Positions 31,457-47,499 of a stretch of 64,000 bases of DNA are shown piece by piece (the first letter of the stretch is position 1; each line of letters begins with the position of its first letter). Under the pieces are notes generated by a model, which was not told the origin of the DNA, ran no database searches, and worked only from the letters and a program-made list of their open reading frames with translations. A program made the translations under genes and the position numbers. The DNA lies in NCBI RefSeq assembly GCF_963921235.1, contig NC_086108.1:15624001-15688000 (forward strand), read 5' to 3'. The stretch comes from Mobula hypostoma. Lineage: Eukaryota.

Positions 31457-32077
31457 ATAAGAGGAGCCTTTTCTGTTGGCTGCTGATGACTAATGGTGTT
31501 CCACAGGGGTCTGTTTTGGGTCTGAGTCTTTTTACATTATATGTCAATGATTTGGATGATGCAATTGATGGCTTTGCTGCAAAGTTTGCAAACAATATGA
31601 GGATAGGTGGAGGGGCAGGTAGTTTTGAAGAAGTCGAGAGGCTACAGAAGAACTTAGACAGATTAGGAGAATGGGCAAAGAAATGGCAGATGGAATACAG
31701 TGTCAGGAAGTGTATGGTCATGCACTTTGGTAGAAGAAATGAAAGGGTTGACTATTTTCAAAATGGTGAGAAAATACAAAAATTTGAGTTGTAAAAGGAT
31801 TTGGGAGTTCTTGCGCAGGATTCCTTAAAGGTTAATTTATAGGTTGAGTCTCTGGTGTGGAAGGCAAATGCAATATTGGCATTTATTTCAAGAGAACTAA
31901 AATATAAAAGCAAGGATGTAATGTTGAGACTTTATAAAGCACTGGTGAGATTTCACTTAGAGTACTGTGAGCACTTTTGGGCCTCTTATTGTAGAAAAGA
32001 TATGCTGAAACTGGAGCAACATACATAAAAGTTGCTGGTGAACGCAGCAGGCCAGGCAGCATCTCTAGGAAGAGGTG

Positions 32078-32115
32078 CAGTCGACGTTTCAGGCCGAGAC
32101 CCTTCGTCAGGACTA
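32078..32115 (-). ncRNA. Minimal type I hammerhead ribozyme
   Basis: Same 38-nt motif with an intact core. Confidence 0.8.
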
Positions 32116-32829
32116 ACTGAAGGAAGGGTGAGCAAGGGATTTGAAAGTTGGAGGGGGAGGGGGAGATCCAAAATGATAGGAGAAGACAGGAGGGGGAGGG
32201 ATAGAGCCAAGAGCTGGACAGGTGATAGGCAAAAGGGATATGAGAGGATCATGGGACGGGAGGTCTGGGAGAAAGACAAGGGGGGGGACCCAGAGAATGG
32301 GCAAGGGGTATATTCAGAGGGACAGAGGGAGAAAAAGGAGAGTGAGAGAAAGAATGTGTGTATAAAAATAAGTAACAGATGGGGTACGAGGGGGAGGTGG
32401 GGCCTTAGCGGAAGTTAGAGAAGTCGATGTTCATGCCATCAGGTTGGAGGCTACCCAGACGGAATATAAGGTGTTGTTCCTCCAACCTGAGTGTGGCTTC
32501 ATCTTTACAGTAGAGGAGGCCGTGGATAGACATTTCATCTTTACAGTAGAGGAGGCCGTGGAATGACTTATTTTTACACACACATTCTTTCTCTCACTCT
32601 CCTTTTTCTCCCTCTGTCCCTCTGAATATACCCCTTGCCCATCCTCTGGGATCCCCCCCCCCACCTTGTCTTTCTCCCCGATCTCCTGTCCCATGATTCT
32701 CTCATATCCCCTTTGCCAATCACCTGTCCAGCTCTTGGCTCCATCCCTTCCCCTCCTGTCTTCTCCTATCATTTTGGATCTCCCTCTCCCCCTCCCACTT
32801 TCAAATCTCTTACTAACTCTTCCTTCAGT

Positions 32830-32867
32830 TAGTCCTGACGAAGGGTCTCGGCCTGAAACGTCGACTG
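32830..32867 (+). ncRNA. Minimal type I hammerhead ribozyme (sense to RABGAP1L)
   Basis: tagtcctgacgaagggtctcggcctgaaacgtcgactg. Confidence 0.8.
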
Positions 32868-33513
32868 TACCTCCTCCTAGAGATGCTGCCTGGCCTGCTG
32901 CGTTCACCAGCAACTTTTATGTGTGTTGCTTGAATTTCCAGCATCTGCAGAATTCCTGTTGTATGCTGAAACTGGAATGGGTTCAAAGGATGTTCACAAA
33001 AATGAATCCAGGATTGAATGACTTGTCATGTGAAAAGTGTTTGATGGCTCTAGGCCTGTGTCTACTCGAATTCAGAAGGATGAGGGGTGACGGAATTGAA
33101 ACCTATCGAATGGTGAAAGGCCTTAATAGAGTGGATGTGGAGAGGATGTTTCCTATGATGGGAGAGTCCTGAGAATAGAGGGACATCCTTTTAAAACCGA
33201 GATGTGGAGGAATTTCTTTAGCCAGAGAGTGACGAATATGTGGAATTCTTTGCCACAGGCAGCTGTGGAGGCCAAGTCTTTATGTATATTTAAGGTAGAT
33301 AGATTCTTCATTGGTCAGGGCATGAAGGGATATGGGGAGAAGGCTGGAGGTTGGTGCTGAGAAGATTGGATCAGCCATGATGAAATGGTGGAGCAGACTC
33401 GATGGGCCAAATGATCTAATTCTGTTCCTATAGCTTGTAGTCTTATGGTCTTAAAAACTGTACATAACAAAAATGGACAAATAACGAAGTGCAAAAGACA
33501 ACGAACTCCAAGT

Positions 33514-40470: not shown

Positions 40471-42069
40471 GAGGAGGAGTCATTCCTGGTTCCTGTATTG
40501 GGACAAGTGGAATGCCACCTTTCTCCTTTTGCTAATTGCAGGGTAATTTGGGCCATATTGACCTGGGATTCTTGAGTACTCCAGGTTATCTTGCAGTGGT
40601 GCCATATTGAGGTCCCATATGGGTCAGTCAGTAGGGAAAATAGAAAATGTTGCAAACATTTATCAGGTCGGGTCTCATCTATGGAGATAGAATCATTCAA
40701 CATTGCAGATTTGTGACCCTTAGTTCATGGAGCAATAAGTTTAGTGGGGCAAGAGCAGGCTGAAACAGTCCTGTTTGTGTATCTTGAGCAGAAGATAGAA
40801 GCAGGCTGAGTGAGGCTGAGGCATCTCAAGGTTAGAAGTTGTGGAGGGAAGATCACTTGAGGAAAACTAGTTAGAACACTTCAATTACGTGTCCTGCTAG
40901 TCCTCATTAACCAGCCTGCCCCCACCATTCTTCAGATGACAGCTCCACCTCACTCAGAGTCATAAAGTGAAAGGGAGATGCAACACTGACACTAACTCTT
41001 CAGCCCATTTATTCAGCCGCTGCCAACCTCCCATTTATTCTCCCCACATTCCCATTGGCAACTGACTCAATTTCTTTGCATAATGCCAATTTTCTATAAT
41101 TGTGTAAAGGATGCTGAACCTTTATTCTTCAATATCACACTTCATTTAACTTGTTGGGCATCTGTCAATTAGAAACATTCTAAAATGAGCTTGTGTTGGC
41201 AGTCTATCTTGATCTGGAGTGCTGTCTGCCTGGAATTTTCACATTCTTCCTATGACTGTGTGTTTCACCTAAATCAAAGGTTGGAAGGTTCATTATCAAA
41301 GCATATATCCAAATACAACTCTTATGCTCTGTTTACTCTCACATCCCAGAAATGTGTGGTTTGTTGGGTTAATTGGATGGTGTCATTTGTGTAGAATCTG
41401 GCAGGTGCAATTTGACTGCAAATCTGTGGTTGACAGTCAATACAAACTTGTTTCCATGTTAAACCCAATAACTAATGACTCCCAATCCCCTCATGTTGTT
41501 TCTAGTTAACCTACCAATCCGCAGTCCTTAAGATGGGGAAGAAAACTGGTGTACACAAAACTCACACAGGGAGAATGTGTAAACTCCACACCAACAGCAT
41601 TGTGGATCAAGATTGAACCAAGACTGCTGGAGCTGTCAGGGAACAGCTCGACTGGAGGCTCATGGTGTTGTCCCGATCTGCTTGCCCCCACGTTCCCCCC
41701 AATGAAAATGCCAGTGGCAATTTCTTAAAGTATCTGTACTGCCAAGTACCCAACAGTTAGTCTCCACCTTATGCCGACCACCTAATAACCCCAATCCTAT
41801 CTCCTGCCAGGCTCCTGAAGTACTCCCCTTCTCCTGGTCTCCCAGAGGAGAACCAGGCACAGTGCCTGGTTACTACTGTCTGTAGAATCCACAGACCTCT
41901 AGGCAACTGCTGCATAGTCACTTAGATAATAACTAATTGAAAGAGAGGTATCTTGAGGCTTTCCTGCTACAAACACTGGGCAGTGCTGAGCAACTACAGC
42001 CCTCTAGAAGATTCAACTTGCAGATTAGGTGTTATACCAGGCCCATTCCGTAGATATAAAGTTGAACAT

Positions 42070-42480
42070 ATCCTGACTGGTTTCATCATGGTCTGGTACA
42101 GCAATTTGAATGTGTAAGAATATAAGAAGCTGCTGAGAGTAGTGCACTCTTCCCAATATTCTGTGCACCTCCCTCCCCACCATCATCATGCAGGAGGCAC
42201 TGCCTCAAGAAGGCAACATCCATCATCAAAGATTTCCACCTACTGGATGATGCCACCTTCTTGCAGTTACCATCAGGCAGGAGGCAGAGAAGTCCCATTT
42301 CACCAAAGCACTTGATTGTTTTGCACTATAATGGACATTTTGTTTTGTTCTCATGTGTTCCAACCTATAAAAATCCTTTTCTTCTGATGCTGCTTGAATA
42401 ATGCTATGTCCCTGTGATGCTGCTGCAAGTAGCTTTTCATTGCACTTGTGCATATGATGATAAACTTGACTTTGACTTGA
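42070..42480 (+). mobile_element. Decayed Rex1-like 3' fragment with (TTGAC)n tail
   Basis: ILTG....WY and A.SIIKD.H....F..LPSGRR-like segments; ends aaacttgactttgacttga. Confidence 0.65.
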
Positions 42481-43501
42481 TCAGGTGATGATATAAAAGC
42501 CACTGCCGGAAGAGCAATGTTTTCGAAGTCCCTGACCAATACTTATTCCTCAGTCAACATCACTGATCATTGCTGTGCGTGACTGTCACATTTTGGTATT
42601 TGTAAACCACCTGATGTGTCTGGATATCATGGAAGACACTACTAACAAGCAAGACTTGATTAAAGAGCATTGTTATCGTATTTCTAATCCACAGCTTTTT
42701 GGGTTCATTGTGATCAAACCTGAAGCAGATTCTCATTTTGAAATGAGATTAAACTTGATTGGAATGTCTGGCATGTTAAAGGAATGACAATATTAAGTGA
42801 TGAGGGTTGAAGTATTCGTAACATGACCTGTGTGAGGAAATTAGCACTGTGCAAAGAAATTAGGTCAACAGTTGACAGCTGACCCATTGCATTCAGGAAG
42901 TAGAGTCACCTGCTGTCCTTAATCCCTCTTCCTTATCCCTAAATCCATCAGTTAATAACATCCACATTCATTTCAGAGATGCTACGGAAAATCTAAGTTG
43001 GAATTACAGTATCTTATTAAAGTTGGTTTACAGACTGCAGTAGGAGGAGCCTCTAGCACTGCTTGACAATTCCAATGACCTTGTGATATATCATCCCTCT
43101 CATGCACTCAAATTGCAAGGTTTATCTGGGGAGGGAGGGGGCTTGTGATGCCTGGTAAATGTACATGGGCCAGGGATGATCAAAAAATCCAGAAGTGAAG
43201 TTCCCTCATATCATTAGAGGAAGAAGCACTCAGAAGGTGTATTCGTGCCTTGTCTGTAGTAGTTCCCTCACTGCGATTCTGCCCACCTAAGCAGTAAGAC
43301 CCAGTTCAACCCCACTGGATTTATTACACTTAACCAGACTTCTTCCATAATGCAGCTCACAAAACTGAACCACTTTGCAACAGCTGGGCTAGTTCCCTTA
43401 CTCCCCCTGCACTGGCTCACAACCCTGCATCCAACAAAATGTCCTGGACTGTCATAGGGAATGCAACGAATCCTGACTTGGAATGAATGTCTTCCCTGCA
43501 G

Positions 43502-43627
43502 ATGCCAGAAGAGCAAGCATTTTGTATCCTGGTGAAGATCATGTATGACTACGGTCTTCGAGAGCTCTACAAGAATAATTTTGAGAATCTTCACTGCAAG
43601 TTCTACCAGCTGGAAAGACTACTCCAG
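43502..43627 (+). CDS. RABGAP1L: RABGAP1L coding exon (MPEEQAFCILVKIMYDYGLRELYKNNFENLHCKFYQLERLLQ)
   Basis: 126-nt phase-0 exon; acceptor cttccctgcag, donor gtacgt; not in the ORF track, translated by hand. Residues AFC, IMYDY and LY.NN fit RABGAP1L better than RABGAP1 as recalled. Confidence 0.93.
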
Positions 43628-43786
43628 GTACGTGCCACGTTTAAGCAAAGTTTAGGTTAATAAGCATGAAATGAACATGTAATTGAAGCAAACAACAGGA
43701 ATTCTGCAGATGCTGGAAATTCAAGCAACATACATCAAAGTTGCTGGTGAACGTAGCAGGCCAAGCAGCATCTATAGGAAGAGGCG

Positions 43787-43824
43787 CAGTCGACGTTTCA
43801 GGCCGAGACCCTTCGTCAGGACTA
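43787..43824 (-). ncRNA. Minimal type I hammerhead ribozyme
   Basis: Intact 38-nt motif on the - strand. Confidence 0.8.
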
Positions 43825-44305
43825 ACTGAAGGAAGAGTGAGTAAGGGATTTGAAAGCTGGAGGGGGAGGGGGAGATGCAAAATGATAGGAGAAGACAGGA
43901 GGGGGAGGGATAGAGCCGAGAGCTGGGCAGGTGATAGGCAAAAGGGGATACGAGAGGATCATGGGACAGGAGGTCCGGGAAGAAAGACAAGGGGGGGGGT
44001 GACCCAGAGGATGGGCAAGAGGTATATTCAGAGGGACAGAGGGAGAAAAAGGAGAGTGAGAGAAAGAATGTGTGCATAAAAATGAGTAACAGATGGGGTA
44101 CGAGGGGGAGGTGGGGCCTTAGCGGAAGTTAGAGAAGTCGATGTTCATGCCATCAGGTTGGAGGCTACCCAGACGGAATATAAGGTGTTGTTCCTCCAAC
44201 CTGAGTGTGGCTTCATCTTTACAGTAGAGGAGGCCGTGGATAGACATGTCAGAATGGGAATGGGATGTGGAATTAAAATGTGTGGCCACTGGGAGATCCT
44301 GCTTT

Positions 44306-44757
44306 GATTTTTATAGGTTGGAACACATGAGAACAAAACAAAATGTCCATTATAGTGCAAAACAATCAAGTGCTTTGGTGAAATGGGACTTCTCTGCCTC
44401 CTGCCTGATGGTAACTGCAAGAAGGTGGCATCATCCAGTAGGTGGAAATCTTTGATGATGGATGTTGCCTTCTTGAGGCAGTGCCTCCTGCATGATGATG
44501 GTGGGGAGGGAGGTGCACAGAATATTGGGAAGAGTGCACTACTCTCAGCAGCTTCTTATATTCTTACACATTCAAATTGCTGTACCAGACCATGATGAAA
44601 CCAGTCAGGATATGTTCAACTTTATATCTACGGAATGGGCCTGGTATAACACCTAATCTGCAAGTTGAATCTTCTAGAGGGCTGTAGTTGCTCAGCACTG
44701 CCCAGTGTTTGTAGCAGGAAAGCCTCAAGATACCTCTCTTTCAATTAGTTATTATCT
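44306..44757 (-). repeat. 452-bp inverted duplicate of 41924-42375
   Basis: Both ends and the internal segments checked are exact reverse complements; identical 70-aa ORFs at 42086-42298 (-) and 44383-44595 (+). Confidence 0.95.
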
Positions 44758-45673
44758 GGAGACAGCTTATCCACTGATGTCTACTATAAGCCTACTGACT
44801 CTCACAGCTATCTGGACTATTCCTCTTCTCACCCTGTCTCTTGCAAAAACGCCATCCCCTTCTCACAATTCCTCTGTCTCCGCCGCATCTGCTCTCAGGA
44901 TGAGGCTTTTCATTCTAGGACGAGGGAGATGTCTTCATTTTTTAAAGAAAGGGGCTTCCCTTCCTCCACTATCAACTCTGCTCTTAAACGCATCTCCCCC
45001 ATTTCACGTACATCTGCTCTCACTCCATCCTCCCACCACCCCACTAGGAATAGGGTTCCCCTGGTCCTCACCTACCACCCCACCAGCCTCCGGGTCCAAC
45101 ATATTATTCTCTGTAACTTCCGCCACCTCCAACGGGATCCCACCACTAAGCACATCTTTCCCTCCCCCCTCTCTCTCTGCATTCCGCAGGGATCGCTCCC
45201 TACACAACTCCCATGACCATTCGTCCCCCCCATCCCGCCCCTCTGATCTCCCTCCTGGCACTTATCCGTGTAAGCGGAACAAGTGCTACACATGCCCTTA
45301 CACTTCCTCCCTTACCACCATTCAGGGCCCCAAACAGTCCTTCCAGGTGAGGCATCACTTCACCTGTGAGTCGATTGGGGTGATATACTGCGTCCGGTGC
45401 TCCCGATGTGGCCTTTTATATATTGGTGAGACCCGACGCAGACTGGGAGACCGCTTTGCTGAACATCTACGCTCTGTCCGCCAGAGAAAGCAGGATCTCC
45501 CAGTGGCCACACATTTTAATTCCACATCCCATTCCCATTCTGACATGTCTATCCACAGCCTCCTCTACTGTAAAGATGAAGCCACACTCAGGTTGGAGGA
45601 ACAACACCTTATATTCCGTCTGGGTAGCCTCCAACCTGATGGCATGAACATCGACTTCTCTAACTTCCGCTAA
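44758..45673 (+). pseudogene. Penelope-like ORF 3' part: RT thumb, Cys-rich linker, GIY-YIG endonuclease; one frameshift near 45170
   Basis: TDVYYKPTDSHSYLDYSSSHP..KNAIPFSQFLCLRRICS; CKRNKCYTC linker (Neptune-like by inference); IYCVRCSRCGLLYIGET. Confidence 0.88.
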
Positions 45674-45969
45674 GGCCCCACCTCCCCCTCGTACCCCATC
45701 TGTTACTCATTTTTATGCACACATTCTTTCTCTCACTCTCCTTTTTCTCCCTCTGTCCCTCTGAATATACCTCTTGCCCATCCTCTGGGTCACCCCCCCC
45801 CCCTTGTCTTTCTTCCCGGACCTCCTGTCCCATGATCCTCTCGTATCCCCTTTTGCCTATCACCTGTCCAGCTCTTGGCTCTATCCCTCCCCCTCCTGTC
45901 TTCTCCTATCATTTTGCATCTCCCCTTCCCCCTCCAGCTTTCAAATCCCTTACTCACTCTTCCTTCAGT

Positions 45970-46007
45970 TAGTCCTGACGAAGGGTCTCGGCCTGAAACG
46001 TCGACTG
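45970..46007 (+). ncRNA. Minimal type I hammerhead ribozyme (sense to RABGAP1L)
   Basis: tagtcctgacgaagggtctcggcctgaaacgtcgactg. Confidence 0.8.
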
Positions 46008-47499
46008 CGCCTCTTCCTATAGATGCTGCTTGGCCTGCTGCGTTCACCAGCAACTTTGATGTATGTAATTGAAGCATCTGGTGGAAATGGATTTGGTTCA
46101 GTAGTCTATTGACTTTGGGGCCATTGGTTGGGGCACTGTGAGGTGCTCTAAGTTCAGTGATGCACATCCCCGTGTTTTGGAAGCATTGTGTTTGTGAATA
46201 TAGAGGTATGGGCCCAGTAAAGGGAATGGGAATGATTTGTCTGTATCTGTGAAACCCACAATTCCTCTATTCCATTTCAGCACCTACTTTTTAAGAAATA
46301 TATGCCCTCTTTATTTTTGTTGGAGAGATACGCAGCTGAAGATACCTTGCTCATCACTACCATTCTGTAAGCTTTGAAATGTTTCAACCATTTTGTTGTT
46401 TTTTTTTCAACTTTGCGTACCCTTTAGAATCAGGAACTATTTGAATAGTTCACTGCAGGGGAACATGAGGTTCGGCTTTGAAACCTGCTGGTCAGGTTTA
46501 GAGTGTGGATTACACTCCACTGCCGAAGCTTCCAAGTTCAAGTTTGTTTATTATTGTTTTAGCCATTCATGCACCAGGTATAAATGCTATAAAATTTAGC
46601 TTTACTCAGCACCAGCACAGTACATTCTAGGACAAGGGCAAGCACAGAGTAACTCAAGAGATTCTGCAGATGCTGGAACTGAAGCAACACAAAATGCTAG
46701 AGGAATTCAGCAGGTCAGGCAGCATTTATGGAGGGAAAGAAGCAGCCAACGTTTTGGGCCAAGACCCCTCATCAGGACGGTTAACATATATTTTACATAA
46801 GACGTGTTTAAAATAAAAAACACTAGTGCAAGATGGAGCAAGAAAAGGAGACATAAAAAATAATTAGGCTGTGGTAGTGTTAAGATTTTTCAGGTTGGTC
46901 TATATTTTGATTTATCATGCTTCCACTACTTGTCTCATGCCAACCACCCTCTACTAATCCCCATCCCAGCTCTGGCCTCCTGGAGGAGAACCAGATACAG
47001 TGGCTGGTTAATAGTGTCTGTAGAATCCACGGACCATAGAGATCCATAGAGATTTAAAGCGATTTCAATGTTTTCTGGCAACTGACAGGTCTCTTTATTT
47101 CTTACTTTTCTATCTGCTTCCTTTCTTGGGTAGATGTAATGTCTGCTGTTTCACAATCCACAGAGGTTGCTCTAGAATTTTGGGATTTTTGCCAGGTCAC
47201 AATAATTGAGTGACACATTTTGTTGCTCTATCAGTTTTTGTTTTACTAGAATCTTCAATCTTATTAACTCATTGCTTTCTTGATCTATCTAAGATACATT
47301 CTACTTTCTCTGCTGTGAAGCAAATACAAAATGCTAAATATAATGCCTAAGTTAGCTCCTTCAATACGTCTCATGTTTCAGCCTCTGAAGGATCTGCATA
47401 CCTCCATGTTTGCCTTCTACAAACTCCTGTTATATATTTCTCACAAGTTTCATAATTGATTTTCCTCCCTTTTTGGCCATCTTTCAGTATTAACATTCC

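What the first reader, a model, noticed from the sequence alone, without database searches (positions are those of the whole stretch)
43677..46076. Penelope-like insertion that captured 452 bp of neighbouring host DNA between its inverted arms
Seen: one 14-bp TSD encloses arm(-), a 452-bp filler and arm(+). The filler (44306-44757) is the reverse complement of 41924-42375, which lies about 1.3 kb upstream, across the exon. It includes both apparently unique flank and part of an old Rex1-like fragment, so it is a locus-specific copy rather than a family match. Inference: during integration the nascent DNA switched template from element RNA to local DNA or nascent RABGAP1L pre-mRNA and then back. 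The filler is antisense to the host transcript, as a top-strand cDNA of the pre-mRNA would be. This would be a route by which Penelope-like elements create local inverted duplications.
Basis: partly seen in the sequence, partly recalled or inferred. Interest (0 to 1): 0.85.

Follow-up and report, generated by a model that had tools for sequence, protein, structure and literature searches.

The report
Penelope insertion with copied neighbouring DNA
A young Penelope-type jumping gene in a fish-like vertebrate intron carries, between its two head-to-head halves, a perfect back-to-front copy of 452 bases of host DNA from 1.3 kb away; this is a rare integration by-product already known for the human L1 element, and whether RNA or DNA was copied remains open.

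Summary
A 14-bp target duplication encloses an inverted arm, a 452-bp filler and a forward arm of a Penelope-like element (PLE). The filler is a 100% reverse copy of 41924-42375 with only two full copies in the genome. In a run of the same organism, filler contigs have twice the flank depth; two related organisms appear to lack the insertion.

Two arms, duplication and one-sided tail are the ordinary PLE pattern (81 of 158 sampled insertions are two-armed). The filler is rare: 1 of 158 others has an inverted local host copy (38 nt, 0.7 kb), similar to L1's 22 of 3,598. Two further cases borrowed sequence from PLE copies 30 kb and 548 kb away on the same chromosome.

A template switch during integration is likely. 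The pre-mRNA template is unproven (about 40%, against 30% for resected DNA): strand and zero microhomology fit it, but no RNA-specific mark exists. Earlier scan notes report similar local captures on other DNA (unchecked). New variant of a known kind.

The parts
41924..42375 (+). Source of the filler: intronic host DNA, its middle part a fragment of an old dispersed repeat
   Evidence: 100% reverse match to 44306-44757
43502..43627 (+). Host exon of a RabGAP-TBC gene, between source and insertion; fixes host transcription as +
   Evidence: Pfam PF23436 E 3.3e-11 and PF00566 E 1.2e-8; AG/GT borders; neighbouring exons on +
43677..43690 (+). Left copy of the 14-bp target-site duplication
   Evidence: 55 two-armed insertions had TSD calls of 12-18 bp
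43691..44305 (-). Left PLE arm: inverted 3' part of the element, with the 37-nt tail at 43691-43727
   Evidence: tail on exactly one arm in 58 of 62 two-armed insertions
44306..44757 (-). 452-bp filler, inverted copy of 41924-42375; no microhomology at the left joint, 3 nt (44755-44757) at the right joint
44758..46066 (+). Right PLE arm: 5'-truncated, frameshifted copy with the end of the RT region, a CX4CX2C linker, a GIY-YIG domain and the 3' untranslated part, no tail
   Evidence: translation; PF01541 E 1.5e-4, 22.4 bits against a cut-off of 22.6
45975..45998 (+). Hammerhead-like core in the 3' part of the arm
   Evidence: matches a core motif recalled from memory; no Rfam match
46063..46076 (+). 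Right copy of the 14-bp target-site duplication

Best explanation
One PLE integration event. Inferred: the element's endonuclease cut both strands 14 bp apart and each 3' end primed its own cDNA, giving two head-to-head arms, one started at the tailed site and one at the inner site. Before the two cDNAs were joined, the 3' end of the left (top-strand) cDNA jumped without homology onto a local sense-strand template, copied 452 nt backwards from 42375 to 41924, and was then joined to the right cDNA through 3 nt of microhomology. I commit to the PLE reverse transcriptase copying the nascent, unspliced host pre-mRNA held at the site. Shown: the structure, the local origin, the orientation and the junction sequences. 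Inferred: the timing, the polarity, the enzyme and that the template was RNA.
For: The filler lies exactly at the arm-arm joint inside one TSD. Source and site are in consecutive introns of one + strand gene, and the filler is antisense and attached to the upstream arm, as a pre-mRNA copy must be; DNA fold-back would give this side half the time. The starting joint has no microhomology (1 of 10 nt match). L167 shows the same layout: an inverted 38-nt copy from 0.7 kb away, joined to the TSD with one untemplated base and to the arm with 3 nt of microhomology. The purified anole PLE protein cuts and extends both strands and starts at internal RNA sites with no homology to the DNA (PMC11167929). 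PLEs retain introns and carry host DNA (PMC8557442; PMC3846280). The L1 inverted-duplication cases show 2-nt microhomology and small hairpins (bioRxiv 2024.12.14.628481), unlike this joint.
Against: No RNA-specific mark: 0 differences in 452 nt, so no editing, and no splice junction is crossed. Both inverted sources (1.3 kb, 0.7 kb) lie within DNA resection range (under 10 kb). No host exon was found in 18 reading frames tested from L167, so its transcription direction is unknown. Blunt joints are common at ordinary arm-arm joins (15 of 55), so the opposite polarity is not excluded. L077 switched by homology onto an older copy, which fits DNA strand invasion as well as RNA. The filler is cleaner than the arms: the arms carry about 9 rare non-CpG substitutions in 1,900 nt, which would predict 3-4 filler-source differences (my estimate, P about 0.02-0.06 for none) if those arose after insertion, and no donor with those alleles was found.
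Confidence: 0.4

Rival explanations
1. Same timing and polarity, but the template was single-stranded top-strand DNA (a resected 3' overhang or the displaced strand of an R-loop), copied by the PLE RT or a host polymerase after fold-back.
For: Published model for L1 insertions with local inversion or inverted duplication, TSD preserved. Both sources are within 2 kb. Patchwork, slip-like fillers at other joints (L013, L096, L124, L133) point to end processing.
Against: Needs about 1.75 kb of exposed strand and priming with no microhomology, whereas the L1 cases show 2 nt and small hairpins.
Confidence: 0.3
2. Opposite polarity: the right (bottom-strand) cDNA invaded the upstream duplex through the 3-nt microhomology, copied towards the break in an SDSA-like step, and was blunt-joined to the left cDNA.
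For: 3-nt microhomology at the primary-arm joint in both the window and L167. Mechanism cited for L1 templated insertions (bioRxiv 2024.08.27.596794). Homology-led switch to a copy 548 kb away in L077. Blunt joins in 15 of 55.
Against: The bottom strand is the one removed by resection on that side and the one paired with RNA in a transcription bubble (established knowledge). Three matching bases are weak for invading a duplex.
Confidence: 0.17
3. The filler was added later, by repair of a break at the joint of an existing two-armed insertion, or filler and source were later homogenised by gene conversion.
For: 0 of 452 differences against about 0.3-0.5 rare non-CpG substitutions per 100 nt in the arms.
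Against: The filler sits at the exact joint of a 1.9-kb element; 730 nt of unique right-arm sequence separate the paired parts, so there is no perfect palindrome there; the arm variants may be inherited from templates or RT errors.
Confidence: 0.06
4. 5' transduction from a now-lost donor allele: a truncated PLE once inserted after 42375 in the pre-mRNA was copied through its 5' joint into 452 nt of intron.
For: Explains the lack of microhomology and the orientation; L077 carries 71 nt of a donor's flank.
Against: No PLE at 42375/42376 in the assembly, and a contig of run X1 runs on past that point (record 4; continuation into the source flank inferred). No donor with the left arm's alleles. 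Needs a lost allele 1.3 kb from the target.
Confidence: 0.04
5. Assembly artefact.
For: 100% identity; no listed contig bridges the filler joints.
Against: In run X1, filler contigs have depth 16.5 and 17.3 against 8.42 for the flank; a 1,376-nt contig with 190 nt in the filler has 9.61 (9.6 expected from 2x plus 1x); the flank contig runs 22 nt into the arm without mismatch; in X5 the matching contig is at single depth (6.6 against 6.74).
Confidence: 0.03

Closest known systems
Inverted (head-to-head) insertions of endonuclease-bearing PLEs with one-sided 30-40 bp tail (PMC8557442, passages; Pen2a_Av in PMC3846280, passages)
   Same: Inverted 5'-truncated copy, short TSD, tail on one arm, C-terminal GIY-YIG.
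   Different: The passages read describe no local host DNA at the joint.
L1 templated insertions (bioRxiv 2024.08.27.596794, passages)
   Same: A nearby genomic segment copied into a new retrotransposon insertion; 22 cases in a set of 3,598, close to 1 of 158 here.
   Different: Typically under 250 bp and within 15 bp of the site; here 452 bp from 1.3 kb away, between two 3'-primed arms, in a germline PLE insertion.
L1 insertions with inversion or inverted duplication at the reciprocal end (PMC11702581 and its 2026 bioRxiv version, passages)
   Same: Inverted copy of target-side DNA, TSD preserved.
   Different: Primed by self-annealing with 2-nt microhomology in small hairpins on a bare end; here no microhomology, the end already carries 615 nt of cDNA, and the source is distant.
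PLE capture of host DNA and intron-containing genes between pLTRs in Adineta vaga (PMC3846280, passages)
   Same: Host sequence enclosed by PLE ends and a TSD.
   Different: There cargo lies between direct pLTRs and moves to new sites; here it is a local copy at the inverted joint.
U6/L1 and mRNA/L1 chimeras (PMC13174262, passages)
   Same: RT switch to another RNA is one proposed mechanism.
   Different: Partners are distinct small RNAs or spliced mRNAs; the passages read do not describe the pre-mRNA of the target gene.

Membership tests
EN+ Penelope-like element | [quoted passage not shown] | tested here: met
   PF01541 E 1.5e-4, 0.2 bits under the cut-off; CxxC between the two motifs seen in the translation
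EN+ Penelope-like element | Single long ORF with RT upstream of the EN | tested here: met
   Near-full copy L051 shows one long frame with a YIDD motif upstream of the EN, one internal stop; read by eye, no profile match obtained
EN+ Penelope-like element | Inverted or tandem pLTR structure, short TSD and one-sided 30-40 nt tail | tested here: met
   37-nt tail on one arm; 58 of 62 two-armed insertions tailed on one arm, 55 TSD calls of 12-18 bp
EN+ Penelope-like element | Hammerhead ribozyme in the pLTR | tested here: inconclusive
   Recalled core motif at 45975-45998; 0 Rfam matches at E up to 1
EN+ Penelope-like element | RT phylogeny within the PLE clade | not tested
   No tree built
Neptune/Nematis clades | CX2-5CxxC linker between RT and EN (PMC8557442) | tested here: met
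   CX4CX2C upstream of the GIY-YIG; does not separate Neptune from Nematis, and no tree was built
Retrotransposition-associated templated insertion (L1 type) | Locus-specific copy of nearby genomic DNA inside the TSD of a new insertion | tested here: met
Retrotransposition-associated templated insertion (L1 type) | Typical size under 250 bp and source within 15 bp | tested here: not met
   452 bp, 1,301 bp away; the paper gives these as typical values, not limits
Fold-back inverted duplication at a resected end | Microhomology at the fold-back joint | tested here: not met
   0 nt at the left joint; 3 nt only at the right joint
RT jump onto nascent pre-mRNA | Copy antisense to the host transcript, from upstream, on the upstream arm | tested here: met
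   one locus, half expected by chance under DNA fold-back
RT jump onto nascent pre-mRNA | RNA-specific marks (splice junction, A-to-I edit) | tested here: inconclusive
   No differences and no exon border in the 452 nt
RT jump onto nascent pre-mRNA | Strand bias across many genes | not testable with these tools

The most novel reading that the evidence does not exclude
The PLE reverse transcriptase, working at both ends of a break inside a transcribed gene, routinely samples chromatin-tethered nascent RNA in cis. It jumps without homology onto the host pre-mRNA (this locus, L167) and, by homology, onto PLE copies within transcripts tens to hundreds of kb away (L096/L097, L077/L112). This would make PLE-rich vertebrate genomes a steady source of local inverted duplications and locally chimeric copies, tens of events for this subfamily alone.
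Probability: 0.3. Interest if true: 0.7.

Novelty: new variant of a known kind. Interest (0 to 1): 0.45.

Why it matters
How PLEs make their inverted insertions is called undefined in PMC8557442. Fillers at the arm-arm joint record what a free cDNA end touches before joining. This genome holds at least 11,328 exact matches to one 40-mer of the family, so the strand and side of such fillers relative to host genes is a direct, computable test of RNA against DNA templating. A 452-bp perfect inverted pair bracketing an exon, plus 580-bp arms 49 bp from its donor site, could also fold the pre-mRNA and affect splicing (inference, untested). As a single event it is a rare by-product with L1 precedent, not a new system.

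Tried and rejected
Filler as part of the element consensus: rejected; only two full copies, and none of the 158 other insertions analysed carries it. Donor copies for either arm: none beyond the locus itself (up to 1 mismatch, exact). Listing two-armed pairs by gapped patterns: not possible in this genome, so no enrichment for fillers; the sample stayed at 160 loci. L136 and L161 failed the pipeline and were only looked at by eye, leaving 158. My first scan missed L167; the later scan has a control rate of 6 inverted hits in 465 windows (all 93.8-96.4% identity), so 1 hit in 81 non-window junction windows is not above control by count. L167 stands on 100% identity, position inside an 11-bp TSD and two copies genome-wide. 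L062, L129 and L142 direct hits were set aside as flank repeats (L062 examined, the other two not). L157's 36-nt filler is a high-copy repeat with no donor found. I first read L077 as a plain 5' transduction; one search showed a switch from a young template onto an older copy, so that reading was dropped. Clustering of young copies: 3 neighbour pairs under 50 kb of 99 places against 0.48 expected (P 0.012), but no excess under 1 Mb (12 against 9.2, P 0.19); uniform placement is a crude null. Rfam: nothing. Pfam on the old repeat in the filler: nothing. Run X9 did not cover the flank.

Full report
OBSERVATION. Self-comparison of the window shows 44306-44757 as a 452 of 452 reverse match to 41924-42375, and 43728-44305 as a 98.8% reverse match to 45487-46066. 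An exact 14-mer at 43677-43690 and 46063-46076 bounds the unit. The left arm has 37 nt at its 3' end that the right arm lacks. The right arm encodes the end of an RT region, a CX4CX2C linker and a GIY-YIG domain. The genome search returned the filler and its source at 100%, and 38 other scored matches at 74-79% over the middle only (40 of 2,103 candidates scored). An exon of a RabGAP-TBC gene lies between source and site, with neighbouring exons on the same strand.

REALITY AND AGE. Four of the 23 listed runs were laid on 43380-44900; all are contigs. In X1 (organism A, possibly the assembled sample, so not independent) the flank contig has depth 8.42 and continues 22 nt into the arm. Two filler contigs have 16.5 and 17.3, and a contig that is 190 nt filler and 1,186 nt other sequence has 9.61, as expected if the filler is present twice. 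In X5 (organism B) the matching contig is at single depth. In X5 and X20 the flank contigs stop matching at the TSD and run on for about 600 letters, the distance to an old PLE remnant in the empty allele (inferred). X5 differs at 6 of 312 flank letters, so the insertion is probably younger than that split. No listed contig bridged the filler joints, and 158,709 pieces were not shown.

WHAT IS ORDINARY. A 40-mer of the family has 11,328 exact matches, and 21 head-to-head pairs appear in the first 100 rows. I fetched 160 loci: those 21 pairs and 40 of the unpaired rows, and the 100 listed of 287 matches, as 99 loci. Of 158 analysed, 81 are two-armed and 77 single; the sample is enriched for pairs by design. 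Among the first 100 loci plus the window, 58 of 62 two-armed insertions have the tail on exactly one arm, 55 TSD calls are 12-18 bp, and of 55 simple joins 15 are blunt, 24 overlap by 1 or more bases, 10 have 1-9 extra bases and 6 have 10 or more. Arms of one insertion differ by 1.83% (42 insertions), arms of different insertions by 2.47%. Inverted copies with a one-sided tail are the described PLE pattern (PMC8557442, passages). The anole PLE protein cuts and extends both strands and starts at two internal RNA sites that define the tail, without homology to the DNA (PMC11167929, parts 1-2 of 4 read). I infer that each arm is a separate cDNA primed from one nick.

WHAT IS RARE. One of the 158 other insertions has the window's layout. 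In L167 (C1:13.68 Mb) a 38-nt stretch between an 11-bp TSD and the arm is a 100% inverted copy of host DNA about 0.7 kb away on the same side, with two copies in the genome. By count alone this is not above the control rate of 6 in 465 windows. Flanks were only 1.3-4.5 kb, so more distant sources would be missed. Two other cases borrow from PLE copies on the same chromosome. L077's 74-nt filler is 71 nt of the flank of an older truncated copy 548 kb away (70 of 71 identical; next best match 92% and shorter), and the arm switches from a young template onto that copy about 12-55 nt from the joint. L096 and L097, 30.5 kb apart with different TSDs, share a private 23-nt joint found only there, and their right arms share 11 rare allele positions, most of them in two deletions. 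Of 9 arm pairs sharing two or more rare non-CpG alleles, 1 lies within 100 kb (0.01 expected) and 2 within 1 Mb (0.06 expected); the first is the same L096/L097 pair. So free cDNA ends in this family do sample nearby sequence.

MECHANISM. The left joint has no microhomology and the right joint has 3 nt; L167 is alike. The simplest reading is extension of the top-strand end on a sense-strand template, then joining by microhomology. A sense template is offered by nascent pre-mRNA, by a resected overhang or by an R-loop; all give the same sequence. RNA is slightly favoured by the strand and side, the homology-free start and intron retention by PLEs. DNA is favoured by the short distances and by the L1 precedent of end remodelling. 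Against simple simultaneous origin, the filler has no differences while the arms carry about 9 rare non-CpG changes with no donor found. I put RNA jump at 0.40, top-strand DNA at 0.30, bottom-strand invasion at 0.17, later addition at 0.06, lost donor at 0.04 and artefact at 0.03.

KNOWN KINDS. L1 templated insertions: 22 cases in a set of 3,598, usually under 250 bp and within 15 bp (bioRxiv 2024.08.27.596794, passages). L1 insertions with nearby templated DNA or inverted duplication (PMC11702581 and its 2026 version, passages). PLE capture of host DNA in rotifers (PMC3846280, passages). mRNA/L1 chimeras (PMC13174262, passages). Fold-back insertions in yeast (PMC11724301, search listing only). 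Six searches listed no paper on local templated fillers in PLE insertions; the library lacks most subscription papers. I did not see the supplementary figures of the two L1 studies (Fig. S4d; Figs S9, S10), which may hold closer matches in size and distance. Earlier scan notes mention local captures in other genomes and larger PLE-linked rearrangements in this one; none lies near this finding, and I did not check them.

VERDICT. Real, young, locus-specific, and most likely made during integration. It works like an L1 templated insertion but is longer, more distant and lacks priming microhomology. It is a new variant of a known kind, interest 0.45; the nascent-RNA reading would be worth about 0.7 and is testable in this genome.

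Noticed in passing
L167 (G000:C1:13679379-13679445 and 13680134-13680171): Single PLE arm with an 11-bp TSD and a 38-nt perfect inverted copy of host DNA from about 0.7 kb away; second case of the finding's layout.
   Followed up: yes
L077 (C5:143.137 Mb) and L112 (C5:143.685 Mb): A young arm switches by homology onto an older truncated PLE copy 548 kb away on the same chromosome and copies 71 nt of its flank, which looks like the 3' end of an RTE-type LINE (label recalled).
   Followed up: yes
L096 and L097 (C9:93.44 and 93.47 Mb): Two insertions 30.5 kb apart share a private 23-nt joint and rare alleles; the allele pattern suggests one was templated on the other and that L096's centre may later have flipped between its arms.
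   Followed up: partly
window 32002-32957: Second two-armed PLE insertion with a TSD of about 15 bp; its joint repeats about 28 nt of the left arm, like a slip during joining; the arms are only about 92% alike.
   Followed up: partly
C5:94.967/95.005 Mb; C9:93.439/93.471 Mb; C12:27.972/28.002 Mb: Three pairs of very young copies lie 30-38 kb apart, against 0.48 expected among 99 places.
   Followed up: partly
L068 (C5:94.965-94.972 Mb): Two same-strand arms each followed by an identical 230-bp stretch: a tandem duplication or a very long target duplication.
   Followed up: no
L027, L069, L074, L084, L124, L127, L152: Short extra element pieces, often inverted or repeated, at the arm-arm joint, resembling twin priming with switching.
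   Followed up: no
window 45205-45240: Four rare non-CpG substitutions cluster within 30 nt of the right arm, with no other copy in the genome within one mismatch.
   Followed up: partly
window 41924-44757: Source and filler form a perfect 452-bp inverted pair around exon 43502-43627, which could pair in the pre-mRNA.
   Followed up: no
L157 (C1:8.355 Mb): 36-nt filler between the arms comes from another high-copy repeat; no specific donor found.
   Followed up: partly
many single-arm loci, e.g. L038-L040, L137, L148, L149: A sizeable share of single arms show no TSD within the fetched flank, possibly target deletions or larger rearrangements.
   Followed up: partly
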